This document shows positions 3 to 18,659 of a stretch of DNA of 64,000 nt, one piece after another. Source of the DNA: Candidatus Peribacteria bacterium (GTDB lineage Bacteria > Patescibacteriota > Gracilibacteria > Peribacterales > Peribacteraceae); the NCBI GenBank assembly GCA_943357915.1, contig CALRGQ010000001.1, forward strand, positions 6,816 to 70,815. The letters run 5' to 3'. A program made the translations under genes and the position numbers. The notes below the pieces were generated by a model that did not search any database, was not told the origin of the DNA, and was given only the letters and a program-made list of their open reading frames with translations. The stretch's first letter is position 1. Every line of letters starts with the position of its first letter.

Positions 3-1070
3 AACCCTGCTTCCCGCGAGTTTCCCGATGACTTCATCCAGACCGGTATTTCTACCATCGATGTCCTCAACACGCTTGTCCGTGGTCAGAAACTCCCGAT
101 CTTCTCCGGCGCCGGTTTGCCACACAGTAAGCTCGCCGCGCAGATTGCACGGCAAGCACGCGTGCTCACGAAGAAAGATGTGGAGTCTCAGGGTGCCGAA
201 GTGGGTGAAGAGGAAGACGGAAAGTTTGCGGTCGTCTTCGCGGCGATGGGCGTGACGTTTGAAGAGGCGCAATTCTTCCAACAAGAATTTGAGAAGACCG
301 GTGCGCTCACTCGCGCCGTGCTCTTCCTGAACACAGCCGATAACCCCGTGGTCGAGCGAATCGCTACACCACGCCTTGCACTGACGGTCGCTGAGTATCT
401 TGCCTATGAAAAAGATTATCACGTCACCGTGATCCTCACCGACATGACAAACTACTGTGAAGCGCTCCGCGAGGTCTCGGCTGCACGCAAGGAAGTGCCT
501 GGACGCCGCGGCTATCCGGGGTACATGTATACCGATCTAGCAACGATCTACGAGCGCGCAGGGCGCATCCGCGGTCGGAAGGGAAGCATCACACAGATCC
601 CGATCCTCACGATGCCGGAAGACGACGTCACACACCCCATCCCTGACCTCACGGGATACATCACAGAAGGCCAGATCCGTCAGGACAGAAGCCTTCACCA
701 AAAAGGTATCTATCCGCCTGTCATCCCGATGGGCTCACTCTCACGCTTGAAAGGCAAGGCACAAGGTGAAGGCAAGACGCGTGAAGACCACTCGGGTATG
801 GACGCTCAGCTCACTGCTTGTTATGCACGCGGCGTGGAAGTCCGCGAGCTTGCAGTGATCTTGGGAGAGTCATCTCTTAATGAGACAGATAAAGCATATC
901 TCGCATTTGCTTCTGCATTCGAGACAGAATTCATCAAGCAAGGCGAACAGGAGAACCGTTCGATTTACGACTCACTGCGCATCGGCTGGAAGCTACTCTC
1001 ACTCGTTCCACGGTCAGAACTCAAGCGTGTGAAGTCAGCGCATATCGACAAGTACATGCCGAAAAAGTAA
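3..1070 (+). CDS. atpB: V/A-type ATP synthase subunit B (5'-truncated by window edge)
   Basis: Frame-3 translation from nt 3 reads [43 protein letters not shown] with no upstream stop. It continues into tracked ORF 117..1070 ([96 protein letters not shown]). These are conserved V/A-ATPase B blocks. Confidence 0.93.
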
Positions 1071-1145
1071 CGACAATTTTTCACCTCTTGCCCCGCGAAG
1101 TTCCCTCAGGAGCGAAGTGGGGTCACTCTCTACCTTTCACTGCTC

Positions 1146-1766
1146 ATGGCCCTTCTCCGCGTCAATCCCACACGCATGGCACTCATGGAGCTCAAGCGCT
1201 CCACGACGTCCGCGAAACGCGGCCATAAACTCCTGAAAGATAAACAGGATGGACTCATGCAACAGTTCCTCGTCACCATTCGATCAGCAAAAGAACTCCG
1301 CATGCGTGTGGAAGCCGAGCTTGGCCAGGCATTCATGAGCTTTCTTACGGCGTCTGCGTGGCTCTCCGATGCCGAAGTGGAAAATGCGCTCAGCAGTCCG
1401 CAAGCGACGATCGAATTGGCGGTAGAGACACGGAGCGTCATGGGTGTAAAAATTCCGTTCTTTCGACTGAAAAAAGAAGGCACCGTCCGCAACTACGGCT
1501 ACTCGCAGACCAACACTCTGCTGGACCGCGCCATCGATGCTTTCGACAATGCATTCGAGACGCTCATCCGTCTCGCAGAGATTGAGAAGCAGGCGGAGAA
1601 CATGGCCATTGAGCTGGAGACGACACGTCGCCGCGTCAACGCACTAGAACACAAAATGATTCCGGATCTCCAGGAGACCGTGAAGTACATCAAACTCCGG
1701 CTTGATGAGGCAGAGCGTGCTGGCATCATCGCAACGATGCGGGTGAAAGCAAGTATGAAGGACTAG
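1146..1766 (+). CDS. atpD: V/A-type ATP synthase subunit D
   Basis: The N-terminus MALLRVNPTRMALMELKRSTTSAKRGHKLLKDKQDGLMQQF and the C-terminal ETTRRRVNALEHKMIPDL are characteristic of V-type subunit D. It directly follows subunit B, the usual A-B-D order. Confidence 0.9.
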   Translation: MALLRVNPTRMALMELKRSTTSAKRGHKLLKDKQDGLMQQFLVTIRSAKELRMRVEAELGQAFMSFLTASAWLSDAEVENALSSPQATIELAVETRSVMGVKIPFFRLKKEGTVRNYGYSQTNTLLDRAIDAFDNAFETLIRLAEIEKQAENMAIELETTRRRVNALEHKMIPDLQETVKYIKLRLDEAERAGIIATMRVKASMKD

Positions 1767-1835
1767 GTTCAGGAGATAGTATTACTGGGTAAAGCTGGAG
1801 GCATTCATTGAGTAAAAATATTCTATGCACAATCA

Positions 1836-1864
1836 TTGCATTTTGCATATTTGTGGGGTATCAT
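1836..1864 (+). promoter_or_regulatory. Candidate sigma70-type promoter for the toxin-antitoxin pair
   Basis: TTGCAT (1836-1841), a 17-nt spacer, then TATCAT (1859-1864), about 22 nt upstream of the ATG at 1887. Confidence 0.35.
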
Positions 1865-1886
1865 AAACGTATTCTCCTCAAAAAAA

Positions 1887-2171
1887 ATGGCTCAGAAAAA
1901 CCTTCAGGTTCGGCTCGACACAGGTCTGCACCAACGCGCAGAGAAAGTGTTTCGGAAGATTGGTATGGACACGCCAACTGCGATCCGTGTTTTCTTTGCA
2001 AAGGTTGCTGATGTCGGAGGCATCCCGTTTCTGCTGGAAAGTTCCGATGATGTCTACACACCACAGCAACTACGAAAGATCGATCGGCTGGCAGCGCAAT
2101 CGAAGAGCGGCAAAGGGGTTTCAGCGTCGTTCTCCTCGATCGACGATCTTATGAAGGATCTTCGCCGCTAA
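1887..2171 (+). CDS. RelB/DinJ-family type II antitoxin
   Basis: MAQKNLQVRLDTGLHQRAEKVFRKIGMDTPTAIRVFFAKVADVGGIPF has the ribbon-helix-helix DinJ/RelB pattern. I chose the internal ATG at 1887 rather than the tracked 1836 start. The stop lies 2 nt before the toxin start. Confidence 0.75.
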   Translation: MAQKNLQVRLDTGLHQRAEKVFRKIGMDTPTAIRVFFAKVADVGGIPFLLESSDDVYTPQQLRKIDRLAAQSKSGKGVSASFSSIDDLMKDLRR

Positions 2172-2173
2172 GA

Positions 2174-2434
2174 ATGCTGATCCACTACACATCTGCGTTC
2201 AAACGGATGTTCCGTAAGCTTGCTCAGGAACAGCAGGAACGTGTGATTTTGGCGTTGCAGCTGTTTAACGTCGACCCCTTCGATCCTCGGCTCCGCAATC
2301 ACAAGCTTAAGGGTTCCAAACAGGGCGTACGATCACTGTCAGCGGGTTACGATCTCCGCATTCTGTATACAGAGGAAGGAGGCCATACGGTGATTTTCCT
2401 GCTTATGGTAGGAAAGCACGACGCGGTGTACTGA
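2174..2434 (+). CDS. RelE/YafQ/ParE-superfamily type II toxin (mRNA interferase-like)
   Basis: 86 aa. The sequence ...DPRLRNHKLKGSKQGVRSLSAGYDLRILYTEEGGHTVIFLLMVGKHDAVY matches the RelE/StbE pattern (nHkLkG..., RiiY, vG.H..vY). It is tightly coupled to the upstream antitoxin. Confidence 0.75.
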   Translation: MLIHYTSAFKRMFRKLAQEQQERVILALQLFNVDPFDPRLRNHKLKGSKQGVRSLSAGYDLRILYTEEGGHTVIFLLMVGKHDAVY

Positions 2435-2606
2435 TTCCTGAGGAAAAGCTAGTTTTTCGGCACATGCTTTCACCCAATAGAACGTCTTTCTTGGCCTATC
2501 TAAGCCATTAAACTAACCACGTCTCTTTTTAGTGTTCTAAAACATCCTGAAAGCGGCACGTGTCAATTTTAGAGTGTGATCATTCTATTTCTTCCCCCAT
2601 TTCTCT

Positions 2607-2990
2607 ATGAAATCGGTGAATAACGTTACCCTGCTCGGGAACACAACAAACGATCCTGAGCTCAAGACCCTCGCTGGAGGGCAAGCTGTTTGTTCCTTTG
2701 GTCTGGCCACCAACCGCGTCTGGAAAGACGTGAAAGGCGAAAAGCAGACCCAAGCTGAGTTCCATAACCTGGTGGTGTGGGGCAAGCTTGGCGAGTTCTG
2801 CGCTGAGTACGTCAAGAAGGGCAAGCCCGTCTACGTGGAAGGCCACTTGAAAACCGGCAGCTGGGAAAAGCCCGAAGGCGTGAAGCATTACCGCACGGAA
2901 GTCGTGGTAGATAACCTCGTGTTACTCGGTGCTAAGGATAAGAGTCCTGAAGTTGCACTGGTAACAGAAGAAGAGGTAGTTGCTGCGTAG
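2607..2990 (+). CDS. ssb: Single-stranded DNA-binding protein, single OB fold, lacking acidic C-terminal tip
   Basis: VNNVTLLGNTTNDPELKTLAGGQAVCSFGLATNRVWKD...QAEFHNLVVWGKLGEFCAEYVKKGKPVYVEGHLKTGSWE is a canonical SSB OB fold. The 127-aa protein ends ...TEEEVVAA with no D-D-(I/L)-P-F tip. Confidence 0.9.
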   Translation: MKSVNNVTLLGNTTNDPELKTLAGGQAVCSFGLATNRVWKDVKGEKQTQAEFHNLVVWGKLGEFCAEYVKKGKPVYVEGHLKTGSWEKPEGVKHYRTEVVVDNLVLLGAKDKSPEVALVTEEEVVAA

Positions 2991-2996
2991 TAAGAG

Positions 2997-3036
2997 TTTT
3001 TCGTAGAGACGCAAAATCTTGCGTCTCTACGAAAAA
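2997..3036. terminator. Perfect 18-bp-stem hairpin after ssb (member of the GAGACG...CGTCTC palindrome family)
   Basis: TTTTTCGTAGAGACGCAA-AATC-TTGCGTCTCTACGAAAAA. The U/A tracts sit on both flanks, so it could terminate in either direction. Confidence 0.6.
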
Positions 3037-3046
3037 CGAGGGGTCA

Positions 3047-3076
3047 CAAAAAACAGGGGAACAAAGTGTTCCCCTG
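3047..3076 (-). terminator. Rho-independent terminator of the minus-strand SLH-like gene
   Basis: Stem CAGGGGAAC/GTTCCCCTG (3054-3062 / 3068-3076) with a 5-nt loop. On the minus strand it is followed by a T7 run (3047-3053). It lies 22 nt past the stop at 3098. Confidence 0.55.
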
Positions 3077-3097
3077 GTTCAAACCCATTGTAAGAGA

Positions 3098-3880
3098 CTA
3101 CCTGCTCAACTCTTCCCAAGTTTTCGATGGCTGATCCACAATGTTCATCTTGGCGCGGTAGATCATCGTCGCCAGCTGACCACGTGTGACCGGCTGTGCG
3201 AGGAAACGAATGCTCGTAGGAATTCCGTTACGCTTGGAAAGGTTCTGGACGTACACGGCGTACCAACGCGGATCGGAAATATCTCCAGAATCCATGCTCG
3301 TGCTAAAGATGCGGCTGACGAGCTTGGAAGCTTCCACAAAGTTCACGGCGCGTGTCGGGCGGAAATAACCATCGGGGTATCCGCGGATCATATTGTTGGC
3401 CAATGCGATGCAGATATCGAGAGCGTTACGGGAATCTTTCGTGACATCATGGAAGAGTGATGCGGAGGTCGTATTCAAACAGCTATTATCACGGTCCCCT
3501 AAGAAAAAATCGCTGGTCATCAGCTGTACCAATTCTTCACGGCGAATGCGCTGATCAGGATGATACTTTCCGTCGGTGTAGTCACCCTTGAGAATATTGC
3601 GAGTACGAAGGAACTCGATAGCTTCATAATCCGAACGGCTGGAAGGAACGTCGAGAAACGCTTTTGTAGAAAACGGCGTCTGTGATGCTGGGGCCACAGA
3701 GGAAGAGGATGAACTCACTCCAGATGTCGGGTTGTACGACGAGCGTCCGATGTCTTCTGGAAACATCGCGAATGCAGCTTCGGCAGTCATCCAAAGAAGA
3801 AGTGCGAGAATAGGGCCGGTGAGAAGTAGAGTATTGCGTTGAGCAAGTAACATAGAAGAGAGGGAAGGAGTAACAAACAT
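3098..3880 (-). CDS. Secreted protein with S-layer-homology (SLH)-like repeats
   Basis: N-terminal hydrophobic signal or anchor ([21 protein letters not shown]). It has repeated F.DV....(A)I..L....I..GY.DG.FRP....V.R.E-type segments ([67 protein letters not shown]). Confidence 0.6.
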
Positions 3881-3922
3881 GAAGACGATCGAAAAGACAT
3901 ATTCTTACGCACTATCATCCAC

Positions 3923-3946
3923 AAAAAAGAGTCCCACTCGGGACTC
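3923..3946 (-). terminator. Rho-independent terminator downstream of the two-component operon
   Basis: Stem GAGTCCC/GGGACTC with a 4-nt loop. On the minus strand it is followed by TTTTTT (3923-3928). Confidence 0.55.
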
Positions 3947-4141
3947 TCTTGTGTCTGCCGACCATCCCTCAATGATCGGCGGATCCTCTTTCACCCGCCA
4001 CGGAGTGCTCCCATTCCGTGGCTTCCTATCCGAACATATCTGATGCAAAACGGGTGGTCCGTCCAATGTTTTCATTGACCTGAACGGACGCGACTACTGT
4101 AAACCGTCGGGCTTAAGAGAGGATTAAGGGGCGTGCGATGT

Positions 4142-5320
4142 TTACGCGGTACGGAACATGACCCGGAACGTCGTACCTTTACCAAGCTCGCTTTCGGCTC
4201 GAATGGCCCAGTTGTGGAGCTCCACAATGCGCTGAACAAGCGCAAGACCGAGGCCGAACCCTTCTTTGGAGCGTGATGTTTCAGCTTGAAAAAAACGATG
4301 AAAGATATTCGGAAGATCATGTGCGGCGATACCGATGCCTGTATCACTGATAATGAGTTCGCGATTGGTCAGTACTGCTTTTACGGTGCCCGCAGACGCA
4401 CTAAATTTAAGAGCGTTCATGAGAAGATTCGAGACAACTTGCTTTAGTAACGCCGCATCACCGCGCACCTGGACATTCTTGGCAACCGTCGTATCTATGG
4501 ATATACCTTTGTCACGTGCGATCAGAGAAAACTTTTCTACGACATCTGTGACCAGTGCAGTGAAATCTATTTTCTTATCTTCCAGCACAAACTTATCAAT
4601 CCGCGCCAGCTCCAAAAGCCGCTCAATGAGCACCGTAATGTCTTTCACATCCTCTTTTGCCGAGAAAAGACCCTCCTGATGTTTGCCTGTCTTCAATGCC
4701 AAATCGAGCGATGAATTCAGTGCTGCAAGCGGTGTCCGTAGTTCGTGGCTGGCATCCTGTGTAAATTGCTCAAGCCGCTCAACCATATCTTCGGCTGGTT
4801 TTAGGCTGTTTCGTGCAAAAAATATGCCGACAACAAACGTCAACGCGGACACGGTAATACTGACGATAAGGTAAAGAAGCGCACGCAACGGGAGATCCCC
4901 AAGACGCAAACGCTCCATATCCGCCACCTGCGCATAGGCCTTCAGTATGCTTCCGGACATGACCGGAACGGTCAGGACGCTCATATCGTCTACATCGATG
5001 TGCATACGCGTGAATCCCCGCCTTGGTATAAAGGGCACATCAGCAAAAAATCGTCCGGCATAGAGCGTCTGACCAGAAGCACCGACGAACCGAATACGTT
5101 CATGCATCGATATCGGTATATCCTCGAGATGGAGCTCGGGAAACCGAGGATTTTCGATTTGCTTCAGGACTACGGAGGATTCTCGTGTGAGACGAAAGTG
5201 AGTCTGACGACGCGCATTGGTGATGTCTGCAGCAAGGAAAATAATGCCATTGAGAAGAAAAAGCCCAAGCACGAATGCGGTGAACTGCAGTGCGATCGTG
5301 TAACTGATGCGTTTGAACAT
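4142..5320 (-). CDS. Sensor histidine kinase (HisKA + HATPase_c)
   Basis: Two N-terminal TM segments. H-box QFTQDASHELRTPLAALNSS, N-box VVSNLLMNALKFS, G-boxes ISDTGIGI and GFGLGLALV. Confidence 0.9.
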   Translation of the reverse strand: MFKRISYTIALQFTAFVLGLFLLNGIIFLAADITNARRQTHFRLTRESSVVLKQIENPRFPELHLEDIPISMHERIRFVGASGQTLYAGRFFADVPFIPRRGFTRMHIDVDDMSVLTVPVMSGSILKAYAQVADMERLRLGDLPLRALLYLIVSITVSALTFVVGIFFARNSLKPAEDMVERLEQFTQDASHELRTPLAALNSSLDLALKTGKHQEGLFSAKEDVKDITVLIERLLELARIDKFVLEDKKIDFTALVTDVVEKFSLIARDKGISIDTTVAKNVQVRGDAALLKQVVSNLLMNALKFSASAGTVKAVLTNRELIISDTGIGIAAHDLPNIFHRFFQAETSRSKEGFGLGLALVQRIVELHNWAIRAESELGKGTTFRVMFRTA

Positions 5321-5341
5321 AGGGAGGCGAGCAAGTCTGGC

Positions 5342-6007
5342 TTATACAGAGGCTGGAATCATGTAGCCCTGTCCGGGAATAGTCTCGATGACACTCTTGC
5401 CGAGCTTACGCCGGAGATAGGCAATGTGGACATCCACGGTTTGGGAAAACATGAGGTCATCTCGTCCGCCCCACACGTGCTCCAAAATGGTTGGACGTTG
5501 TTGCGCGCGGCCTTTCGTGCGAAGTAAGTACTCAAACAATGCGTACTCACGCGGCGAGAGTGACACCTTCATGTCGTTCTTGCGGACCTCACGCGTATTC
5601 GTGTCCATGGTGATATTGCCAGTGTGGAGGATCGGTGTTTTCTCCTCTCCTTTGCGCCGCAAAAGCGCACGTACGCGAGCGAGTAATTCATCTAAATCAA
5701 ACGGCTTCGTCAGGTAATCATCGGCGCCGATATTCAGACCGTGGACGATTTCCTGTTGTTTGGCTCTGGCCGTCAGCATGAGGATCGGCATATTTTTGCG
5801 GTTCTCACGAAGCATGGTGCAGATGACATAACCGTCCATGCCGGGCAGGTTAATATCGAGAATGATGAGATCAAATTCTTGTGTCATCGCTTTTTCAAAT
5901 CCGTCTTTGCCATCATGACACACGGTCACAACGTAGGTTTCCGTTTTCAAAAACTCTGAGATATTTGCGGCCAGCTTTTCCTGATCTTCAATCAAAAGGA
6001 TATTCAT
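5342..6007 (-). CDS. OmpR-family response regulator
   Basis: Receiver domain MNILLIEDQ...DLIILDINLPGMDGY...MLTA...DDYLTKPFDLDELLARVRALLRR, followed by a winged-helix region LSPREYALFEYLL...VDVHIAYLRRKL...GQGY. Confidence 0.93.
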   Translation of the reverse strand: MNILLIEDQEKLAANISEFLKTETYVVTVCHDGKDGFEKAMTQEFDLIILDINLPGMDGYVICTMLRENRKNMPILMLTARAKQQEIVHGLNIGADDYLTKPFDLDELLARVRALLRRKGEEKTPILHTGNITMDTNTREVRKNDMKVSLSPREYALFEYLLRTKGRAQQRPTILEHVWGGRDDLMFSQTVDVHIAYLRRKLGKSVIETIPGQGYMIPASV

Positions 6008-11416: not shown

Positions 11417-11445
11417 TTGAATAAAAGTCTGTTTTTTGGTATAAT
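11417..11445 (+). promoter_or_regulatory. Near-consensus sigma70-type promoter for the 11555-16571 operon
   Basis: TTGAAT (11417-11422), an exactly 17-nt spacer, then TATAAT (11440-11445). Confidence 0.5.
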
Positions 11446-11554
11446 ACTTAGAAATTCACACACATATCTGTCTCAGGTAAACCCTATCGCCATTGGCACA
11501 TTTCCATCCGGGCTTCCCATTCTTCCGAATCCTCGGGTGCTGTATGACCAGATC

Positions 11555-11860
11555 ATGGAGACAATCGAACCCGAACTTATGACGTCCGCGCTACAAACAC
11601 TCACAGAAAAATATGCACAGGAAACGCCTGAGGAAAGAAAGAAACGAGCATTGCGATACGCTAAGGCCTATAAGCAATATCATGAAGCCTTTGCGAGTTA
11701 TATGAGTGCACTGCAACGTGCGATCAAGCATTTTACCGCAGCCGCAACAAAGTCGTTTGAGACGACGTATCGGGAAGGTGAGCAAAATGATCTGCTTGAG
11801 CTAGAAGCTGCGTTTGCAGCTGAGCCTTCTACGAATCCCCAGAATTCCCATGATGCGTAA
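11555..11860 (+). CDS. Hypothetical helical protein (101 aa)
   Basis: ORF from the first ATG downstream of the promoter. Its stop overlaps the start of the giant gene (ATGATGCGTAA). I recognise no family, and the start is uncertain. Confidence 0.45.
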   Translation: METIEPELMTSALQTLTEKYAQETPEERKKRALRYAKAYKQYHEAFASYMSALQRAIKHFTAAATKSFETTYREGEQNDLLELEAAFAAEPSTNPQNSHDA

Positions 11861-14800
11861 TGTCTTTTCATCATCGGACATCCGGGAACAAAGGCTTCTG
11901 TGTTTTGGTTTGGCTGATAGCTTCAAGCCAGAACCGGCACACGTAGAGACAGGTAGCCCAGAGACTGCAGCGGAACCTGAAGATCTCGACACAATGTCTA
12001 ATGAAGACGTTTATGCTGAGTCAAACGCACTTATTGTCGAAAATCTGGCACGCCTTCACATGGAGTGGGAGCAAGCACTACCGAAAATGGTGGCCATGCG
12101 AAAGGAAATTTTCGGGCAACGTACTGTGGCTGGGAAAACAAAAAAAGCACGTGAAACGAAAATTAGATATCTGAACACAGACGCTCGCAGATCAAAAGAC
12201 CAAGGATTTATTGCTGATATTCATGAACAAATAAAGCAGCAAACAGAATTTCTAAATGCTGCACGAGCAGAGTGGCTCTCTCTGAACCAACAGCTCATGA
12301 GCATTATAGAAGATATCAAACAATGGAAGTTCCAAAAGCCGGACATGGCAGACTCCGCATACGACATCACAGGTGTGCGAAGAGGAGGGGCAGCACCTAC
12401 CGACACGAATCCGTGTAAACCAAAAGTAACTCCAAATTGTGATCCCTGTGTACCGGACGGGGCAACTTCAAGGAGTCCTTATGCAACAGATCCATATCCT
12501 AGCAATTTCCAACCGACAAATCGTCATGAGCACCTACCACCCGCTATAAGAGATTTCGTACAAAAAGCTACAGCGTATTTAGACACGCAAGATAAAGATA
12601 TTGTGAACAGATGGATGGGAAAAATAGTAACAGCAATAGTAGGAAAGCCAGAGATGAACGAGGGGATAGAAATTTGGACCAAACTTCTCCGAACGAATGA
12701 AACACTCGATGAAGCTGCTCTGAACGCACTATCAACAGATGAAAAAAATGCTGTAGAAAAACTAACAACGGCACTAGCACTCACGCCCGCTGAAAAAGTT
12801 ATCTTTGAACACATTCTGAAGCATTTTGGAGAACCATTATTATCCTCAGAATATGAGGATGATGAGAACGCCAAAGCTTACACATTGGGAGAAGAAACAG
12901 AGCCTACGAAAAATACTATTCTCGATATTCTCACGAAGCGTAAAGATGCCATCGCAAAGAAGGATGTAGAACTACAAAACAGTCTGGAAAGGGAGTTGAT
13001 CATGCAAGGCGTGGATATTCCGAATAGTAACCTAGGGAGTGAAACACCTGATAAGGACGTCAAAATGCTTCCAAAAAATGGCCTGGCGCGTTTCATCCCG
13101 GCTCTCATGGCTCTTATTAAGTTGCTTCAGTCGCTGTGGAATAAAGAGGGAAAGGCTGGGGAAGAAAAGAAGGAAGAGCAGGAAGAGAAAAAGGAGGAGG
13201 ATGAGGAGGAAAAACTAGGAGACATGACTAAAGAGCAATTACAGGAAAAGATGAAAAAGAACGATGAGCGAATAAAGTCTATCTCAACAGAAGGAGAGAA
13301 AATTGATGCAGAGATTTTGGAGATTCAAAAAGAGCTTGATGAAAAGACAGCAACGTTGGAAGAGAGTACGGATAAAGAAAAAAAACCTCTGAGAGACCTG
13401 AAAGACAAAATGGATGAAAAAATGGAGGCACGGGGAACGTTACTTAAAGAATTAAACAAGCTAAAAAAAGAAAATGAGAAAATACAGAAAGAGCTTACAG
13501 AGAGAGCGACGAAGGACTATATGGGAGATCTGGAAAAGGAAGATGAGTCACTGAATGAAGCAAGCGTTCGTCAGCGCATTGCAACTTTGGTGAATGCAAA
13601 TACACTCAATGAAAAACTAAGCAACATGACGAGTCTTCCTTCTATGACAAAGGAACAATTCGACCATGCAAAACAAAAATTTAAAACTCTGCTGTCAGAT
13701 AATAAAGACAAATTTATAGAAACTTTTGAAATCGATATCAAAGATAATACAGTGAGAATTGGTGTAAATTTATCAAAAATTGAGAAATTGCTGATTTTGG
13801 CGCAAGGATCGTGTGAAGAGGTAGTAGAAGCACTCATTCCGCAGTTGAGTGTTGGAGGAGCAATAATACGTTTGTTAGACGAGAATGACCAAGGCGGAAC
13901 CGTGATTTATACCGAGTATTTAAATGCAGCAGAATTGGACGAACTTTTCAAGAAACCGTCAGAGGAAATAAGGGGAGATGATGCAGGTGAAAAGAAAGAA
14001 GAAACTCCTAGTCTAGAAACAATGATAAATGATTTAAAAGAAAAATATAAACTTAAAAATATTCAGTATATCGGAGTAAATGAGGATGATTTACTAAAAA
14101 GTATGGCAACTATTCAAGCGGCAATGTTGAATGTTAAAGATCAATTAATAGGAAAGAATATTATCTTCAGTAGTGAAGAAGCGTGTGCTTATACTTCGGA
14201 AAATGTTGCTATTATTTTCAATGACGCAGAAGGGACAATGACGACGAAACTTCAATCGAGTTTAAAAAAAACGGGCGAACTTAAGAAATTAGATTCCAAG
14301 TTCGATGCATTAAAAAAGGAACATGGAATCAAAAATATTTTCGTTCTAATAGAAGCTGAAACATTAGTAGAGGGTAAGCTTACCCTATTCCAGGAAGTTA
14401 TAGGCACACTAGGAACAGAGCTCAGTGGTAAAGAAATTTATTTCACTACTAGCGACACGTATGTATCAGAGGATAGTAAAAAAATTGGCATTTCTTCTAA
14501 AGATACAAATAAAGATATTATAATAGCGAAGATTAGAGCGATTCTACCGAAAGAAGAAAAAGCAGAAACCCTTAGTCTAGAAGATATTTTTAACAATTTA
14601 ATAACAACATATAAGCTCAAAGCGATTAAAAATGAAGGAAATGATAACGGTGCTTTGCTAAAAAAAATGGGAACTATTCAAAAGGTATTGTCGAAATACA
14701 AAAATCAGTTAGAAGGGGAGACTATCAGGTTCCATCCAAGAGACTGGCCAGTCCTTACTTCGAATTATCTGCATATTAATTACAATGAGTTAGAAAAGGA

Positions 14801-16571
14801 AATGGAAACAAAGCTAGAATCGAGTATGAAAGAAATAGATGAACTTAAGAAATTAGATTCAAAGTTCGATGATGTAAAAAAGAAGTACGCCATCAAAGAT
14901 ATTCTTGTTGTTACAACTGCTAAAAAACTTGTAACGGATAACCATGCCTTCCTTCTGCAAGTAGTAGAAGAACTAGGAAAGGAACTCAGCGGTAAGATAA
15001 TTTATATCGATGAAGTACCCACGAATGCGTGGATTAATAGCAGTGGTGCATATATTTCCATTGATGCCAGTGGAAGCGACAAAGAGGCTAAGAAGCAGGA
15101 AGTTAGGGCAGCTCTATTGTTAGCGTCAGGAGGAGTAAAACTGGAGCCTGCTAAACGAGGGCCAGAGACGACTGACAAATTAGATGGAACGTCAAATGAT
15201 AGCTCAAATCAGGAGCTTGTTGAAACACTTAAAGCTTTTAAAGGCGACCTAACTATTGAGCCTAGCGAAGCGCGATACGAAGCTCTTATGTCAGCCGTAT
15301 CTAAAAGGTTATCAACGCAAATTAACTCCACAGACTATGCGATGGAGGTAGTTCAGTTTTTAAATCCAGACTCAACTACGTTAGCATATTCGCTAGTAAT
15401 TATTACAGACAAAAGAATCATGACTCCGGCTTTGTTTGTACGAAAAGGAGCACTGGTTGCAAAAGTATTTTTTGATATACATGGCAATATTACGAGTGTA
15501 TTAGAAAAAATGGACAAAGATACATTAAAACAGCTCTTCGGGGAGCAGAAATATGATGAAGTTCTCACTCAGTTAGAAAAGATCATGGATCCCGAATCTG
15601 CAGAGGCTATTGGTGGTGATGAACTCAACCTATACGCATACACTATCACCCATCTTGCCTCGCCAACCGTAGAACAAAAGCGTACTGCGCTCAACTGTAT
15701 TGAGACTGCATTAAAAAATGATCACGATAATTTGATATTTAAGGATACAAAAGCTTGTGTCCTCGTTATGTTAGGACAATATGACGAAGCTGAAATTATA
15801 TGGAACGAAATCATTCCAAAGTTAGAAACTAAGATTGAAGAAGAGACAGAGGAAGCAGATCAAAAGAATTTGAAGTCTGATTTAGAGGAGATACAACAGA
15901 ATTTTGAAAAGTGCAAACAAGCTAGGAAGGCATTAGAGCCGCAAACTACGACTGAGACTCCTACTCCCGCTCCGCCAGAGCCAGCGCCCACTGAGGTAAC
16001 GAATAAAAGCCTAGAAGCTACTTTTGAAGACCTGAGGGGAAGTTTAGGGATAACAAGCTTCGCGATTAATCCAGCTGATGCTGTGGGTGTTCAGACGAAT
16101 CTGGTAAAGATTACAAAGGTTCTGACAGAGATTGGGAAGGAGGAATTGGATGGTAAGAGTATCTATCTTGTTACATCGTATGGAACATGCGCACTAAGTG
16201 ATAATAACATAGCCATCAATTATAATGATGAAACTGATGCAATGAAAACGAATATTCAAAGGGTTTTGAAAGAAATACATCAGCTTAAGGAACTCCAAAC
16301 TTCTCTTGAAGACCTGAGGGGAAGTTTAGGGATAACAAGCTTCGGGATTAATCCAGCTGATGCTGTGGGTGTTCAGACGAATCTGGTAAAGATTACAAAG
16401 GTTCTGACAGAGATTGGGAAGGAGGAATTGGATGGTAAGAGTATCTATCTTGTTACATTGTATGGAACATGCGCACTAAGTGATAATAACATAGCCATCA
16501 ATTATAATGATGAAACTGAGACAATGAAGACGAATATTCAAAGGGTTTTGAAAGAAATAAAGGCTAAGTAG
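11850..16571 (+). CDS. Giant charged, modular repeat protein (about 1574 aa), no signal peptide, function unknown
   Basis: Uninterrupted ORF. It has a long Lys/Glu-rich segment (EEKKEEQEEKKEEDEEEK...), a single TPR-like stretch (ALNCIETALKNDHDNLIFKDTKACVLVMLGQYDEAE) and at least 6 copies of a module of about 90-95 aa ending ...L.GK.IY.... The start is 11850/11853 (MMRNVF) or the tracked 11814. Confidence 0.8.
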   Translation: MMRNVFSSSDIREQRLLCFGLADSFKPEPAHVETGSPETAAEPEDLDTMSNEDVYAESNALIVENLARLHMEWEQALPKMVAMRKEIFGQRTVAGKTKKARETKIRYLNTDARRSKDQGFIADIHEQIKQQTEFLNAARAEWLSLNQQLMSIIEDIKQWKFQKPDMADSAYDITGVRRGGAAPTDTNPCKPKVTPNCDPCVPDGATSRSPYATDPYPSNFQPTNRHEHLPPAIRDFVQKATAYLDTQDKDIVNRWMGKIVTAIVGKPEMNEGIEIWTKLLRTNETLDEAALNALSTDEKNAVEKLTTALALTPAEKVIFEHILKHFGEPLLSSEYEDDENAKAYTLGEETEPTKNTILDILTKRKDAIAKKDVELQNSLERELIMQGVDIPNSNLGSETPDKDVKMLPKNGLARFIPALMALIKLLQSLWNKEGKAGEEKKEEQEEKKEEDEEEKLGDMTKEQLQEKMKKNDERIKSISTEGEKIDAEILEIQKELDEKTATLEESTDKEKKPLRDLKDKMDEKMEARGTLLKELNKLKKENEKIQKELTERATKDYMGDLEKEDESLNEASVRQRIATLVNANTLNEKLSNMTSLPSMTKEQFDHAKQKFKTLLSDNKDKFIETFEIDIKDNTVRIGVNLSKIEKLLILAQGSCEEVVEALIPQLSVGGAIIRLLDENDQGGTVIYTEYLNAAELDELFKKPSEEIRGDDAGEKKEETPSLETMINDLKEKYKLKNIQYIGVNEDDLLKSMATIQAAMLNVKDQLIGKNIIFSSEEACAYTSENVAIIFNDAEGTMTTKLQSSLKKTGELKKLDSKFDALKKEHGIKNIFVLIEAETLVEGKLTLFQEVIGTLGTELSGKEIYFTTSDTYVSEDSKKIGISSKDTNKDIIIAKIRAILPKEEKAETLSLEDIFNNLITTYKLKAIKNEGNDNGALLKKMGTIQKVLSKYKNQLEGETIRFHPRDWPVLTSNYLHINYNELEKEMETKLESSMKEIDELKKLDSKFDDVKKKYAIKDILVVTTAKKLVTDNHAFLLQVVEELGKELSGKIIYIDEVPTNAWINSSGAYISIDASGSDKEAKKQEVRAALLLASGGVKLEPAKRGPETTDKLDGTSNDSSNQELVETLKAFKGDLTIEPSEARYEALMSAVSKRLSTQINSTDYAMEVVQFLNPDSTTLAYSLVIITDKRIMTPALFVRKGALVAKVFFDIHGNITSVLEKMDKDTLKQLFGEQKYDEVLTQLEKIMDPESAEAIGGDELNLYAYTITHLASPTVEQKRTALNCIETALKNDHDNLIFKDTKACVLVMLGQYDEAEIIWNEIIPKLETKIEEETEEADQKNLKSDLEEIQQNFEKCKQARKALEPQTTTETPTPAPPEPAPTEVTNKSLEATFEDLRGSLGITSFAINPADAVGVQTNLVKITKVLTEIGKEELDGKSIYLVTSYGTCALSDNNIAINYNDETDAMKTNIQRVLKEIHQLKELQTSLEDLRGSLGITSFGINPADAVGVQTNLVKITKVLTEIGKEELDGKSIYLVTLYGTCALSDNNIAINYNDETETMKTNIQRVLKEIKAK
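16024..16559 (+). repeat. 282-bp tandem duplication (about 1.9 copies, 5 mismatches over 254 bp) inside the 3' end of the giant gene
   Basis: 16024-16277 aligns without gaps to 16306-16559. The only differences are cgcg/cggg, tcg/ttg, gatgca/gagaca and aaaacg/aagacg. The period is 282 bp, or 94 codons, in frame. Confidence 0.95.
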
Positions 16572-16583
16572 CCCCAGTAAATA

Positions 16584-16607
16584 TGGTGCCTAGGAAAGGA
16601 ATCCTCG
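16584..16607 (-). repeat. Degenerate duplicate of the tRNA-Leu 3' end (acceptor/T-arm fragment)
   Basis: TGGTGCCTAGGAAAGGAATCCTCG compared with the true tRNA 3' end TGGTGCCCAGGAGAGGACTTGAACCTCC at 16827. The first 19 nt match 17/19 in the same orientation, 243 bp away. Confidence 0.5.
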
Positions 16608-16826
16608 TGATCTCCCATCTTCGCTAAAGCTACGGTGGGCAAGCAGGACAAGGTTGAACACTCCGCTTCTCTCAGTACGAGCCCTGATGGCTTGGCATGA
16701 TAAACCGAGACGCGGCGTCTCGGCTGCGAGGTTCATTATGAGATCGTGACGGGTTCCGTAACTTCTCTCTATGTGAGCCTTGATGGTTTACCGTGAGGGG
16801 AGTCCGCCTGAGGCGGACGAATCGAA

Positions 16827-16912
16827 TGGTGCCCAGGAGAGGACTTGAACCTCCATATCCTTGCGGATACCAGCTCCTAAGGCTGGCGCGTCTGCCATTT
16901 CGCCACCTGGGC
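16827..16912 (-). tRNA. tRNA-Leu (anticodon UAG), CCA encoded
   Basis: The reverse complement folds as a cloverleaf: acceptor GCCCAGG/CCTGGGC, anticodon stem CCAGC/GCTGG with loop CTTAGGA, a long variable arm TATCCGCAAGGATATG, T arm GGAGG-TTCAAGT-CCTCT, and 3' ACCA. Confidence 0.92.
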
Positions 16913-17019: not shown

Positions 17020-17919
17020 TTACATCAGCAAGTCTCGTTGTAGTTTTTTGTACTTCTGTTCAATCTCTTCATTCTTATGCGCTAGCTCCGTGTCACTTTG
17101 GTGAATCATGCGTCGCAATTCTGATTCGGACTGTGCTTTTTTGCCATAAAAATCATTATCGATCTCGTTTTTACGACGAGTCGCTTCCTGAATAATCCCT
17201 GTTTTACGTTCGTTCCACTCATTCTCCACTTTCTGACGCCTCACTTTATGTTGCACGTTAGTCGCTGCATGGAGTTGCTGCATTGATTCGTTGTCCACTC
17301 GGAGCATCCGGCTTCTTTTCCATTCTTCCAGATGATACTCATGGGTTTTGACGTCGGTATCAATCAACGTTTTACGATCCTTTGCTTCGTGCTCATACGC
17401 TGTTTTTCTGGCGGAATCAGCATGCTCAGCGGTTTGCATCTGCATCCGATGGTCATATTCAGCTTTCTTGTACTCACGCTCTTGCTCGGCCTCCAGTTCA
17501 CGCTGGCGCTTTTCTCGATGCTGTTTTATGAGCGATGTTTCATGTAATTCTTTCATGTAGCCTTGCTGTACTTTCCGTTTGGCCTCATGAACTTTCTGCG
17601 CCGACATGATGAGCTGGGCTTGTTTTTCACGCCTCTTCTTATCATCTGCCAATTCTTGTTCCCGCTTCTTGATCATCCCTCGGTATTCTTTTTTGTGTTC
17701 TATTACTTCTTCTTTCTTCATGCCTTCCGTCGCAGCAGAAAGATGTGCACGTTTTTCTTCAGCCTCACGGTTTTTGCGAATCGTATCTTTGATGTCCTGT
17801 TCGCATTCGGAGCGCTGTCTGCCAAGTTCCGCAGCTCGCATAATTTCCTGCTCCCTGTTTCCGGGATTAGTAGGCAGAGGAACAGAGCCGGATACAGTAG
17901 TATCATCCTGTGGATTCAT
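17020..17919 (-). CDS. Hypothetical highly charged (Lys/Glu/Arg/Gln-rich) coiled-coil-type protein
   Basis: 299-aa ORF with strong coding asymmetry. It has long heptad-like charged stretches (KKREQELADDKKRREKQAQ, REKRQRELEAEQEREYKK). No signal peptide and no recognisable domain. Confidence 0.7.
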   Translation of the reverse strand: MNPQDDTTVSGSVPLPTNPGNREQEIMRAAELGRQRSECEQDIKDTIRKNREAEEKRAHLSAATEGMKKEEVIEHKKEYRGMIKKREQELADDKKRREKQAQLIMSAQKVHEAKRKVQQGYMKELHETSLIKQHREKRQRELEAEQEREYKKAEYDHRMQMQTAEHADSARKTAYEHEAKDRKTLIDTDVKTHEYHLEEWKRSRMLRVDNESMQQLHAATNVQHKVRRQKVENEWNERKTGIIQEATRRKNEIDNDFYGKKAQSESELRRMIHQSDTELAHKNEEIEQKYKKLQRDLLM

Positions 17920-17972
17920 ATCGCATCATTATAGCACGAAAATGGTTTGTGGCCTACCTATCGCCCTTCTTT

Positions 17973-18659
17973 TCAGATTTCTTCTTCGGGTTCGCAGAGA
18001 TAGTGCCTATTCTTTTTCTGCGAAAGCGGATCTTCTTCATCAAGAACCTTGAGAGTGTACGGGGAATCGAAATATTTCTGTGGTTCAATGCATGGATATC
18101 GTACCGCCATGGTCACGACCGATACGTTCCCTTGATACTTGCCCGCTGCCACTTCGTCATTGAGCGGCAAGTGAAGAGCGAAGACCCGTTGAACATATCC
18201 TCTGAGCGCTCCTTGGATGAGCGGCACAGTGTTGGTTCTGAGTAGAGATATGACATCCATCACCTCTGCCTGATGAGTGAATGCTACGACCGAGCGCTGG
18301 AGTGGATGGCGTGGTGATGATCGTGTCACAAACTTATACCTGCTTGGTGTTGGATCTACTGTAGCCAAAATATCATTTGCTTCCATGAGTCTCTTGCGCT
18401 TTTTATTCATAATTTCCAGACCATGGTCGTCTTCATGAAGTTGGTACTCCGTCACTGCAAATTTCACTCCGACTGCATCTGCAGCCTCTTCAAACATTGC
18501 ACGTAGATCATCGATCCGATTACTGAGATTTTGGTCATACTGTGTATCGCTTAAATAGGTAGCGCCACTCTGTTCGGTCAGAAGTCGATTATACGCTCGG
18601 GTGTAGGAAGCGTTGGGCGAACGAATAATACCGATATTAACATTCTTAGATTCTTGCAT
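17973..18659 (-). CDS. Hypothetical protein (228 aa)
   Basis: Clean ORF co-oriented between aspS and the coiled-coil gene. I recognise no motif. Confidence 0.7.
   Translation of the reverse strand: MQESKNVNIGIIRSPNASYTRAYNRLLTEQSGATYLSDTQYDQNLSNRIDDLRAMFEEAADAVGVKFAVTEYQLHEDDHGLEIMNKKRKRLMEANDILATVDPTPSRYKFVTRSSPRHPLQRSVVAFTHQAEVMDVISLLRTNTVPLIQGALRGYVQRVFALHLPLNDEVAAGKYQGNVSVVTMAVRYPCIEPQKYFDSPYTLKVLDEEDPLSQKKNRHYLCEPEEEI

What the first reader, a model, noticed from the sequence alone, without database searches (positions are those of the whole stretch)
11417..16571. AT-rich two-gene unit encoding a giant cytoplasmic modular repeat protein behind a near-consensus promoter
A TTGAAT-17-TATAAT promoter at 11417-11445 precedes a 101-aa helical ORF and an overlapping ORF of about 1574 aa. 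The large protein has no signal peptide and an extended Glu/Lys-rich region. It carries at least six copies of a 90-95-aa module in two alternating flavours. Examples are ...LKEKYKLKNIQYIG...IQAAMLNVKDQLIGKNIIF... and ...KLDSKFDALKKEHGIKNIFVL...LGTELSGKEIYF.... The module is always built around a conserved L..(E/Q)L.GK.IY strand. By eye the DNA is much more A/T-rich than the flanking genes. I cannot match the module to a known repeat family. Size, charge and modularity suggest a scaffold or cytoskeletal protein, or a polyvalent phage- or plasmid-derived protein.
Basis: partly seen in the sequence, partly recalled or inferred. Interest (0 to 1): 0.6.

Follow-up and report, generated by a model that had tools for sequence, protein, structure and literature searches.

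The report
Expanded orphan scaffold protein of Peribacteria
The giant gene is a much-enlarged copy of a fast-evolving gene pair (small protein plus large partner) found only in the uncultivated Peribacteraceae. It has grown by repeatedly duplicating a new 94-residue protein-binding-like module, and its function is still unknown.

Summary
There is a TG-extended sigma-70-type promoter, a small ORF and an overlapping 1573-aa ORF. The large protein has no signal peptide, a Lys/Glu-rich stretch and exactly six ~94-aa modules (A-B-A-B ... C-C). The gene is AT-shifted even at silent sites (GC3 0.35 against 0.50 ± 0.07 for the genome).

It is not phage or plasmid DNA. The organism is a Ca. Peribacteria MAG. 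The small ORF belongs to a family found in 63 of 65 genomes of the same GTDB family (1-5 copies each) and in no sampled genome outside it. In relatives the same chromosomal slot (AspRS ... tRNA-Leu | partner | small ORF | SLH protein, PyrF) holds a small ORF translationally coupled to a 470-1011-aa partner. These partners share the giant's N-terminal RExRL motif, GVD motif plus hydrophobic helix, and K/E coiled coil.

The giant is this conserved core (aa 1-~730) plus an ~850-aa species-specific extension: six α/β modules and a three-TPR-like domain shared with a second giant paralogue. The module folds confidently (pLDDT 91). Its only fold matches are the tandem repeats of TCAIM and of trypanosome mitoribosome assembly factors. 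A 282-bp, 97-98 % identical duplication shows that amplification is ongoing.

Most likely function (inferred): a cytoplasmic multivalent adaptor.

The parts
11417..11445 (+). Sigma-70-type promoter TTGAAT-17-TATAAT with a TG-extended -10
   Evidence: Best match in the region. An equivalent promoter lies upstream of the small ORF in 19 of 32 related cassettes.
11537..11860 (+). It belongs to a Peribacteraceae-specific family with the motif LYDxIMxxIEPEL ... ETPEER..R..RY.KAF.EYD.
   Evidence: Alignment and HMM. Found in 63 of 65 genomes of the same GTDB family, 1-5 copies each, and in 0 of ~336 genomes of other families in the class. No Pfam, NCBIfam or PADLOC hit.
11850..16571 (+). Giant partner gene, 1573 aa. 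Its start overlaps the small ORF's end by 11 nt.
   Evidence: A partner-family HMM built without it matches aa 1-728 collinearly (E 5.6e-9, high bias).
11850..11939 (+). N-terminal family motif (MMRNVFSSSDIREQRLLCF), followed by a Pro/Glu-rich linker
   Evidence: The same F...RE(A/Q/H)R(L/M)(L/I) motif sits at the N-terminus of partners in about 20 related loci and in both paralogues in this genome.
13035..13145 (+). Family motif ELIMQGVDIPNSNL plus a conserved ~15-residue hydrophobic helix (ARFIPALMALIKLLQSLW), followed by a basic cluster
   Evidence: It is the most hydrophobic stretch, at the same relative position, in most orthologues. It is too short and too weakly hydrophobic for a reliable transmembrane helix (alignment).
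13146..13544 (+). Lys/Glu-rich predicted coiled coil (aa 433-565, 46 % K+E)
   Evidence: It is collinear with the K/E region of the orthologues. Orthologues give only weak SMC-like coiled-coil noise in PADLOC and NCBIfam.
13545..13964 (+). Middle α/β-type domain (aa 566-705), at the position of the orthologues' C-terminal domain
   Evidence: The family HMM alignment ends at about aa 728. There is no profile similarity to the module (hhalign). Its fold was not predicted.
13983..15116 (+). Modules A1 (13983-14249), B1 (14250-14528), A2 (14547-14813) and B2 (14814-15116). This is an old duplication of an A-B pair and the most AT-rich part of the gene (GC3 0.295).
15222..15944 (+). Domain (aa 1125-1365) shared at 39 % identity with the second giant paralogue. 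The C-terminal half (aa 1221-1360, nt 15510-15929) is a confident helical three-TPR-like domain; the N-terminal half was modelled only at low confidence.
   Evidence: Paralogue match. AF2 block-mean pLDDT is 76-93 for aa 1221-1360. Foldseek matches CHIP, Sti1, PP5 and FKBP51/52 TPR domains at prob 1.0 and TMt 0.62-0.70, but with E-values of 0.006-0.08. Absent from 150 other genomes of the family and from the 5.8-billion-cluster protein set.
15996..16568 (+). Modules C1 (15996-16286) and C2 (16278-16568). The 282-bp tandem duplication spans 16024-16559.
   Evidence: TRF: period 282, 1.9 copies, 98 % matches. A 263-nt direct repeat is 97 % identical. AF2 of the C1C2 pair gives pLDDT 91.3 and pTM 0.79.
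16583..16602 (+). Partial copy of the tRNA-Leu 3' end, directly after the giant's stop codon
   Evidence: ATGGTGCCYAGGA matches at 16583 and 16826. The pair brackets only the 243-nt spacer, not the gene pair.
16827..16912 (-). tRNA-Leu(TAG), the conserved neighbour that marks a variable slot in Peribacteria genomes
   Evidence: The slot's content differs between relatives.

Best explanation
The unit is one copy of a two-gene cassette specific to the Peribacteraceae, and I found no published description or curated model of it. The cassette has a promoter, a ~105-aa small protein and a translationally coupled large 'partner'.

**Partner core.** All partners share a conserved core. It consists of an N-terminal RExRL peptide on a disordered linker, a helical region ending in a GVD motif and a short hydrophobic helix, a Lys/Glu coiled coil, and a C-terminal α/β domain. 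Beyond that core the partners diverge extremely fast.

**This genome.** Here the partner at the tRNA-Leu/SLH slot has been extended from the usual 470-1011 aa to 1573 aa. The ~850 added residues are species-specific.
- There are six tandem ~94-aa α/β modules joined by long helices. They arose by successive duplications, first of an A-B pair and most recently of a 282-bp unit.
- There is one three-TPR-like domain, which is also present in a second giant cassette partner in the same genome.

**Proposed function (inferred, not shown).** The protein stays in the cytoplasm, possibly held at the membrane by the hydrophobic helix and oligomerised by the coiled coil. It would act as a multivalent adaptor whose repeats and TPR domain bind folded proteins or peptide tails. 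The small protein would be its co-translated binding partner or chaperone, probably acting through the N-terminal peptide.

**AT-richness.** The AT shift is an exaggerated form of one seen in every orthologue examined. It comes from Lys/Glu/Asn/Ile-rich repeats together with low GC3.
For: **Shown**
- Organism and synteny.
- Small-ORF family: 63 of 65 genomes of the family and 0 outside it. This genome has three cassettes.
- The partner's start lies 0-22 nt from the small ORF's stop in about 24 loci, and the N-terminal motif is shared.
- A family HMM built without the giant matches its aa 1-728.
- The promoter is conserved.
- There are six modules and none elsewhere in the genome. None was found in 400 genomes of the class.
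- Among 1.84 billion representative proteins there is one module hit, P0003, E 1.4e-12.
- The 282-bp duplication is recent.
- Long partners in other genomes carry their own internal repeats.
- The two-module model has pLDDT 91.3 and its only significant fold hits are tandem-repeat proteins, including TCAIM. TCAIM binds folded OGDH E1 through 'β-repeat motifs' (PMC13311838).
- One genome has the small protein and the partner fused in a single frame.
- Every orthologue examined has 1-6.5 points lower GC than its flanking genes.

**Against export**
- No signal peptide is present.
- The genome has a single FtsK-domain protein, so no EssC-like multi-domain ATPase, and no WXG100 protein.
Against: - The function is entirely inferred.
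- Core homology rests on a biased HMM score and short motifs. Plain tblastn finds nothing.
- The second paralogue is not retrieved by the family HMM.
- The fold matches are remote: 12-13 % identity and TMq 0.45-0.58 for the modules, and E 0.006-0.08 for the TPR domain.
- GC3 at z = -2, the adjacent tRNA with a duplicated 3' fragment, and the small ORF falling outside its nearest relatives' clade also fit acquisition by recombination.
- The hydrophobic helix could be a true membrane anchor in some members (G245, L040).
Confidence: 0.55

Rival explanations
1. The gene pair, or at least its C-terminal ~850-aa extension, was brought in horizontally. One route is cassette replacement or recombination at the tRNA-Leu hot spot, with another Peribacteraceae lineage or an unknown element as donor. 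On this view it did not grow in place.
For: - GC3 is 0.353 (z = -2.0) and 0.295 in the A/B modules.
- tRNA-Leu is adjacent, and a partial copy of its 3' end sits directly after the stop codon.
- The slot varies between relatives. Some carry other genes or toxin-antitoxin-like ORFs, and some have no cassette.
- The window's small ORF lies outside the 97/89-supported clade of its closest relatives' copies. Its best identity (41 %) is to a distant genome.
- The only other module-bearing sequence, P0003, is equally AT-rich (GC3 0.29) on a contig whose 3' flank is about 52 % GC.
Against: - The unit has no integrase or other mobility gene.
- The repeated tRNA fragment brackets only 243 nt, not the genes.
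- There are no phage, plasmid or IMG/VR relatives.
- The AU test does not reject the small ORF grouping with its near relatives (p = 0.26).
- The promoter, small ORF and partner core sit exactly where relatives have theirs.
- The 97-98 % identical C1/C2 duplication shows growth in place.
- The second cassette, not next to a tRNA, has the same composition.
Confidence: 0.2
2. The cassette encodes a polymorphic exported effector or surface protein used in cell-cell or host interaction. The conserved N-terminal peptide and the small protein would act as secretion signal and chaperone for an unrecognised export route. The variable C-terminal repeats (α/β modules, TPR, LRR-like in the paralogue) would bind targets outside the cell.
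For: - The architecture resembles polymorphic effector families: a conserved N-terminus with a hypervariable C-terminus, several copies per genome, and copies often clustered.
- The paralogue ends in LRR-like repeats.
- A small co-encoded helical-type protein recalls secretion chaperones or adaptors.
- Many CPR bacteria are known to live attached to other cells (general knowledge).
Against: - There is no signal peptide and no convincing transmembrane segment.
- The genome has no EssC-like ATPase (a single FtsK domain) and no WXG100 protein, so a type VII route is not supported.
- No toxin or enzyme domain was detected.
- The basic cluster after the hydrophobic helix, and the highly charged coiled coil, point to a cytoplasmic C-terminal part (inference).
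Confidence: 0.17
3. It is a structural or cytoskeletal filament protein of the cell.
For: - The protein is large and has a ~130-aa Lys/Glu coiled coil.
- Orthologues give weak SMC-like or MukB-like matches.
- The AF2 model shows long helices linking the modules.
Against: - The coiled coil is under 10 % of the protein.
- The SMC-type hits are far below the curated cut-offs and cover only the K/E region.
- The family has 1-5 copies per genome, and length and sequence differ wildly even within a genus. This is unlike a conserved cytoskeletal element.
Confidence: 0.05
4. It is an assembly artefact: a chimeric MAG contig, or a mis-assembled repeat, creates the appearance of one giant AT-rich gene.
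For: - The genome is a 66-contig MAG.
- Composition deviates from the genome.
- A 282-bp repeat at 97-98 % identity is hard for short-read assemblers, so the number of C modules may be wrong.
Against: - Both flanks are syntenic with relatives, and the AT-shifted gene begins with the family's own promoter, small ORF and core.
- One uninterrupted 1573-aa frame runs through all parts.
- A second cassette on the same contig shares the TPR-like domain and the same composition.
Confidence: 0.03

Closest known systems
TCAIM (mitochondrial DNAJC-type co-chaperone, PDB 8i0k chain C) and the trypanosome mitoribosome assembly-intermediate chains 6sga/7pub/7pua F6 and 6yxx E3
   Same: - These are the only significant fold matches to the two-module model (Foldseek E 3e-6 to 6e-4, prob 1.0).
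- Both modules align in tandem over about 204 columns, with TMq 0.45-0.58.
- TCAIM uses its repeats to bind a folded client protein (PMC13311838).
   Different: - Identity is only 12-13 %.
- No Pfam hit to any family, TCAIM's included.
- No J-like domain was detected.
- This is a bacterial protein with six units plus other domains.
- The identity of the trypanosome chains was not established here.
Three-TPR peptide-binding domains of co-chaperones (CHIP/STUB1, Sti1/Hop TPR2B, PP5, FKBP51/52, SGT2, PcrH)
   Same: aa 1221-1360 is modelled with confidence as about seven helices. It superposes on these domains at TMt 0.62-0.70 and prob 1.0.
   Different: - Foldseek E-values are only 0.006-0.08.
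- No Pfam TPR model matches.
- Carboxylate-clamp residues were not examined.
- The domain is preceded by a poorly modelled β-rich half that is conserved in the paralogue.
LXG/WXG100-type polymorphic substrates of type VII secretion with small helical partner proteins (Firmicutes)
   Same: - A small (~100 aa) protein is encoded directly upstream of a large protein with a conserved N-terminus and a variable C-terminus.
- The cassettes are multi-copy and clustered.
   Different: - There are no WXG100 or LXG matches and no EssC-type ATPase in the genome.
- No toxin domain and no downstream immunity gene were found.
- The resemblance is one of gene organisation only.
Large lineage-specific orphan proteins of CPR/Peribacteria genomes (e.g. 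the cysteine-rich extracellular giants of Ca. Peribacter riflensis, PMC4736985)
   Same: They come from the same lineage, are large, and belong to no recognisable family.
   Different: - Those proteins are described as secreted and cysteine-rich.
- This protein has no signal peptide and only 11 Cys in 1573 aa.
- This one belongs to a defined two-gene cassette family.

Membership tests
Peribacteraceae small-ORF + partner cassette (family defined here, apparently undescribed) | Small ORF with the LYDxIMxxIEPEL ... RY.KAF.EYD signature | tested here: met
   The HMM hit of the window copy has E 4.7e-39.
Peribacteraceae small-ORF + partner cassette (family defined here, apparently undescribed) | Partner start abuts or overlaps the small ORF's stop codon | tested here: met
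   The overlap here is 11 nt. The gap is 0-22 nt in about 24 related loci.
Peribacteraceae small-ORF + partner cassette (family defined here, apparently undescribed) | N-terminal F...RE(A/Q/H)R(L/M)(L/I) peptide | tested here: met
   The giant begins MMRNVFSSSDIREQRLLCF. The orthologues are listed.
Peribacteraceae small-ORF + partner cassette (family defined here, apparently undescribed) | Collinear core: GVD motif, hydrophobic helix, K/E coiled coil and C-terminal domain | tested here: met
   An HMM built without the giant aligns positions 1-535 of 608 to aa 1-728. The full E is 5.6e-9 and the domain E is 3.4e-4, with a bias of 84 bits.
TCAIM family (Pfam DUF4460/DUF4461, as I recall the accessions) | Sequence match to the family models | tested here: not met
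   No Pfam family of this kind appears at E <= 0.1. The PDB sequence search with the module profile finds nothing relevant.
TCAIM family (Pfam DUF4460/DUF4461, as I recall the accessions) | Tandem α/β repeat fold | tested here: met
   Foldseek against 8i0k_C gives E 5.6e-4, prob 1.0 and TMq 0.58 over 203 columns.
TPR repeat domains | Sequence match to Pfam TPR models | tested here: not met
   No TPR family was reported for P0001 at E <= 0.1.
TPR repeat domains | Three-TPR helical fold | tested here: inconclusive
   The region is confident (block-mean pLDDT 76-93). Matches have TMt 0.62-0.70 and prob 1.0, but E-values of only 0.006-0.08.
Type VII secretion substrates (WXG100/LXG with helper proteins) | WXG100 or LXG domain, and an EssC ATPase with several FtsK domains in the genome | tested here: not met
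   PF06013 is absent. The genome has one FtsK_SpoIIIE domain, in a 748-aa frame. P0001 and P0002 have no such Pfam hit.
tRNA-integrated genomic island or prophage remnant | Integrase or other mobility genes, and direct repeats of the tRNA 3' end bracketing the element | tested here: not met
   The ORFs between the SLH gene and AspRS have no integrase-type Pfam hit. The tRNA-end copy brackets only 243 nt. No phage, plasmid or IMG/VR similarity was found.
Known anti-phage defence systems (PADLOC) | Match to a defence-system protein model | tested here: not met
   The giant, the small ORF and both neighbouring ORFs have no hit. The orthologues give only coiled-coil noise (E 1e-5 to 1e-3) to JetC and LmuB.

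The most novel reading that the evidence does not exclude
The cassette may be a new, Peribacteraceae-specific targeting system. A short N-terminal RExRL peptide, together with a dedicated small partner protein, would route a hypervariable, freely expandable array of protein-binding domains (α/β modules, TPR, LRR-like) to an unrecognised export or assembly machine. That would make these proteins polymorphic effectors or adhesion adaptors in the interactions of these ultra-small bacteria with other cells or with phages.
Probability: 0.15. Interest if true: 0.75.

Novelty: new variant of a known kind. Interest (0 to 1): 0.45.

Why it matters
Candidate-phyla bacteria devote a large part of their tiny genomes to big orphan proteins that nobody can name. 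This case turns one such orphan into something that can be worked on.
- It defines a two-gene cassette that is nearly universal in one bacterial family. The cassette has a conserved promoter, a short N-terminal peptide, a co-encoded small protein, and a C-terminus that evolves by visible, ongoing module duplication.
- It provides a confidently modelled new repeat unit. The unit's only fold relatives are client-binding repeats of a mitochondrial co-chaperone and of ribosome-assembly factors.
- This gives concrete constructs to test: the small protein with the N-terminal peptide, single modules, and the TPR-like domain.
- It is also a clear example of how protein length can more than double within a genus.

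It does not yet reveal a function.

Tried and rejected
- **Whole-protein homology search.** It found nothing, but it was swamped by Lys/Glu words because 8000 candidates were scored. It was repeated on aa 1100-1385 alone and again found nothing.
- **Relatives of the giant.** None in 40 related genomes, GTDB genome contigs, JGI metagenome contigs, IMG/VR, phages or plasmids.
- **Degenerate-pattern scan with the module alignment.** It failed because the alignment is too poorly conserved.
- **Module profile against 400 genomes of the class.** Only chance-level hits outside this genome (E 1e-3 to 1e-2 per genome).
- **Is the module a copy of the family's own C-terminal domain?** hhalign shows no similarity (prob < 1 %). 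Only the C-terminus of the L069 partner matches the module HMM over its full length, and marginally (i-E 0.012 in a 27-sequence set).
- **Type VII-like export.** Rejected: no EssC and no WXG100.
- **Defence system.** Rejected: PADLOC gives only coiled-coil noise.
- **Transmembrane anchor.** The conserved helix is only ~15 hydrophobic residues (Kyte-Doolittle 19-residue mean 0.8-1.8), with the basic cluster on its C-terminal side. I treat it as a possible peripheral or buried helix.
- **Alternative genetic code.** Rejected for this genome, where TGA ends 178 of 602 long frames. The in-frame TGA upstream of P0003 remains unexplained.
- **Cassette replacement.** The tree suggests it, but the AU test does not support a firm claim (p = 0.26).
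- **Viral structure library.** No significant fold match.


Full report
**1. What is in the sequence**

- **Large ORF.** The region holds a 1573-aa ORF at 11850-16571 on the + strand.
- **Small ORF.** It is preceded by a small ORF that ends at 11860, so the two overlap by 11 nt.
- **Promoter.** TTGAAT-17-TATAAT at 11417-11445 carries a TG-extended -10 and is the best consensus match in 11.0-17.1 kb. The total number of matches there (15) is not above the shuffled expectation of 11.6 ± 3.8.
- **Modules.** Windowed self-BLAST, MAFFT and an HMM built from the copies find exactly six ~94-aa modules and none elsewhere in the genome.

| Module | Residues |
|---|---|
| A1 | 712-800 |
| B1 | 801-893 |
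| A2 | 900-988 |
| B2 | 989-1089 |
| C1 | 1383-1479 |
| C2 | 1477-1573 |

- **Module identities.** A1/A2 and B1/B2 are each 39 % identical. A versus B is 16-21 %, and C versus A or B is 21-26 %. C1/C2 are 85 % identical over my module boundaries.
- **Recent duplication.** At DNA level C1/C2 is a 282-bp tandem duplication, 97-98 % identical.
- **Shared strand.** All copies contain (E/Q)LxG(K/E)xIx(F/I/L).
- **Lys/Glu region.** aa 433-565 is 46 % Lys+Glu.
- **No signal peptide.** The N-terminus has no hydrophobic segment.
- **Composition.** The gene has GC 0.394 against 0.483 for the genome. Over 990 long ORFs the genome's GC3 is 0.496 ± 0.071. The giant has GC3 0.353 (z = -2.0) and the A/B modules 0.295. 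The AT shift is therefore real and not only a consequence of amino-acid content.

**2. Whose genome, and what surrounds the gene**

- The window is part of a 1.39-Mb, 66-contig genome.
- Its AspRS is 90 % identical to that of a Candidatus Peribacterales MAG, and all 80 best loci are Peribacteria, Peregrinibacteria, Gracilibacteria or unnamed Patescibacteria records.
- TGA is a common stop codon, so the standard genetic code applies.
- The flanking genes are housekeeping genes: ComM, PyrF and an SLH-domain protein on one side, and tRNA-Leu, two unknown ORFs, AspRS, Sua5 and DnaE on the other.

**3. The gene pair is a member of a lineage-specific cassette family**

*Synteny.* The order DnaE-Sua5-AspRS-(228-aa ORF)-299-aa ORF-tRNA-Leu ... 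SLH-PyrF-ComM is conserved in related genomes. Plain tblastn with the giant finds nothing there. ORF listing of the gap shows that many relatives carry the same arrangement in the same orientation: a small ORF followed directly by a 470-1011-aa ORF.

*Small ORFs.*
- They form a clear family with the motif LYDxIMxxIEPEL ... ETPEER..R..RY.KAF.EYD.
- In a sample of 401 genomes of the class, the family occurs in 63 of the 65 genomes of the window's GTDB family, at 1-5 copies each. It occurs in none of the roughly 336 genomes from other families.
GTG 11537 is therefore the more likely start (inference).

*Partners.*
- The partner's start lies 0-22 nt from the small ORF's stop in about 24 loci.
- The partners share an N-terminal peptide, F...RE(A/Q/H)R(L/M)(L/I), which in the giant reads MMRNVFSSSDIREQRLLCF.
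- They also share a motif (E/Q)G.L.M.GVD..S.L followed by a ~15-residue hydrophobic helix and a basic cluster. In the giant this is ELIMQGVDIPNSNL ... ARFIPALMALIKLLQSLWNK.
- A K/E coiled coil beginning 'MT.EE' follows, and then a C-terminal domain.
- A profile built from 24 partners without the giant picks the giant as the best of 12,670 six-frame ORFs in its own genome. It aligns profile positions 1-535 of 608 to aa 1-728, with full E 5.6e-9 and domain E 3.4e-4. The compositional bias is high, so this is moderate evidence.

*Promoter and other copies.*
- A TTGnnn-17-TAnAAT promoter, usually with TG, lies upstream of the small ORF in 19 of 32 cassettes.
- The genome has two more cassettes. 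One is at C1:82784-76288, with a 2027-aa partner that has an LRR-like C-terminus. The other is on contig C64, where the partner is cut by the contig end.
- In one genome (G245) the small protein and the partner are fused in one 760-aa frame. This is consistent with a physical partnership, but it is a single MAG observation.
- No Pfam, NCBIfam or PADLOC model matches any cassette protein beyond coiled-coil noise.

**4. What is special here: the extension**

*Distribution.*
- Residues ~730-1573 have no counterpart in relatives.
- The module profile finds nothing credible in 400 genomes of the class.
- Among 1.84 billion representative proteins it finds one hit, P0003 (395 aa, three modules, E 1.4e-12).
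- P0003 sits on a 1.3-kb contig from a public run. Its coding part is as AT-rich as the giant's modules (GC3 0.29), while its 3' flank is about 52 % GC.
- That flank ends in a sequence resembling the one that precedes tRNA-Leu in the window. P0003 is therefore probably the same locus in an unbinned relative (weak inference).
- An in-frame TGA lies 30 nt before the P0003 start.

*Shared domain.* aa 1125-1365 is 39 % identical to part of the 2027-aa paralogue. It is absent from 150 other genomes of the family and from the large protein collection.

*Growth by duplication.* Long partners elsewhere (L064, L070, L066) carry their own, unrelated internal repeats. Lengthening by tandem duplication is therefore a habit of this family.

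*Origin of the module.* The module shows no profile similarity to the orthologues' C-terminal domain. One near relative (L069) has a marginal full-length module match at its C-terminus.

**5. Structure**

- **Two-module model.** AlphaFold2 on C1-C2 with a four-row alignment gave pLDDT 91.3 and pTM 0.79. Each module runs helix, strand, two to three helices and a small sheet of further strands, and a 32-residue helix runs into the next module.
- **PDB fold matches.** Foldseek against the PDB gave only five significant hits, all with both modules aligned in tandem.
  - Three are chain F6 of trypanosome mitoribosomal small-subunit assembly intermediates (E 3e-6 to 1e-5).
  - One is 6yxx chain E3 (E 1e-4).
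  - One is TCAIM in complex with OGDH E1 (8i0k_C, E 5.6e-4, TMq 0.58).
- **What TCAIM does.** It is described as binding native, folded E1 through 'β-repeat motifs' (PMC13311838, citing Mol Cell 2025;85:638).
- **Viral library.** No viral structure matched.
- **Second model.** aa 1091-1573 gave an overall pLDDT of 69.6. aa 1221-1360 is confident (block means 76-93) and all-helical, while aa 1091-1215 is poor.
- **TPR-like domain.** The helical part superposes on three-TPR peptide-binding domains (CHIP, Sti1, PP5, FKBP51/52, SGT2, PcrH) at TMt 0.62-0.70 and prob 1.0. E-values are only 0.006-0.08.

**6. Origin: grown in place or imported?**

*For import*
- The GC3 shift.
- The neighbouring tRNA-Leu, with a partial copy of its 3' end directly after the giant's stop codon.
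- The variable content of this slot among relatives. Some have toxin-antitoxin-like ORFs, and L029, L030, L032 and L045 have no cassette.
- A tree in which the window's small ORF lies outside the 97/89-supported clade of its nearest relatives.

*Against import*
- The tRNA fragment brackets only 243 nt.
- There are no mobility genes and no phage, plasmid or IMG/VR similarity.
- The AU test does not reject vertical grouping (p = 0.26).
- Every orthologue examined is 1-6.5 GC points below its flanks.
- The second cassette, not next to a tRNA, has the same composition.
- The C1/C2 duplication shows growth in place.

I conclude that the core is native to the family. The extension grew at least partly in place, and recombination between cassettes of related lineages remains possible.

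**7. How it probably works (inference)**

The protein is probably not exported:
- It has no signal peptide.
- The basic cluster lies on the C-terminal side of the short hydrophobic helix.
- The coiled coil is strongly charged.
- The genome has no EssC-like ATPase and no WXG100 protein.

The extension is a string of fold types that elsewhere bind proteins or peptide tails. I therefore read the giant as a multivalent cytoplasmic adaptor, possibly membrane-proximal. The coiled coil would oligomerise it, and the small protein would be a co-translated partner acting on the N-terminal peptide. None of these steps has been shown.

The rivals are an exported polymorphic effector, recombinational import, a cytoskeletal element and an assembly artefact. 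Each is listed with its own evidence in the Rival explanations section.

**8. Novelty and verdict**

- The phage/plasmid reading is not supported, and 'scaffold' remains the best guess.
- The cassette family and the module have no curated sequence model in Pfam, NCBIfam or PADLOC, and my limited literature searches found no description of them.
- In kind this is a modular repeat protein of an orphan-rich lineage, so I class it as a new variant of a known kind, of moderate interest.

Noticed in passing
window 16583-16602 and 16826-16845: A partial copy (about 17 of 21 nt) of the tRNA-Leu 3' end lies directly after the giant gene's stop codon. It brackets a 243-nt GC-rich spacer. It may be an old integration or duplication scar at a variable slot.
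   Followed up: partly
G000:C1:73061-82784 (outside the window, about 2.2-12 kb past its end): A second cassette on the - strand has a small ORF (138 aa) and a 2027-aa partner. The partner carries the shared TPR-like domain, two ~100-aa internal repeats and an LRR-like C-terminus. A further AT-rich 1039-aa ORF follows. Pyrimidine-synthesis-type genes flank it, as PyrF flanks the window's cassette.
   Followed up: partly
G000:C64:2780-3629: A third cassette. Its partner runs off the contig end inside EVPADEKPKT repeats, so the assembly probably broke on a repeat.
   Followed up: no
L105:1293-3575 (G245:C1:87792-90074): The small protein and the partner are joined in one 760-aa open frame, with the N-terminal motif (MKHCFLKFTVSERERRVICF) now internal. 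This is either a natural fusion or a sequencing error.
   Followed up: no
L040:5200-7500: In one relative, the space between tRNA-Leu and the cassette holds several small ORFs that look like MazF/MazE-type and RelE/RelB-type toxin-antitoxin pairs (judged by eye, not scanned). In L029, L030, L032 and L045 the slot lacks the cassette altogether.
   Followed up: no
L003:1-140 and 1266-1342: The only other module-bearing sequence (P0003) has an in-frame TGA 30 nt before its ATG, and the frame is open upstream of it. This could be a split gene, an error or a recoded stop. Its 3' flank resembles the sequence preceding tRNA-Leu in the window.
   Followed up: partly
window 17020-18659 (- strand): The extremely charged 299-aa ORF is conserved next to AspRS in nearly all related loci (25-57 % identity). 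The 228-aa ORF is conserved in a subset. Neither has a Pfam, NCBIfam or PADLOC hit.
   Followed up: partly
L064:14956-17988 and L070:14645-17401: The longest partners in other genomes (1011 and 919 aa) contain their own tandem repeats (~120-160-aa units, 36-61 % identical). By sequence these are unrelated to the window's module.
   Followed up: no
L106 (G104:C2:72000-84000), 943-5420: At the syntenic locus one genome has two small-ORF copies in tandem in front of a single partner, and a third copy 3 kb away. Several genomes have clustered cassettes.
   Followed up: no
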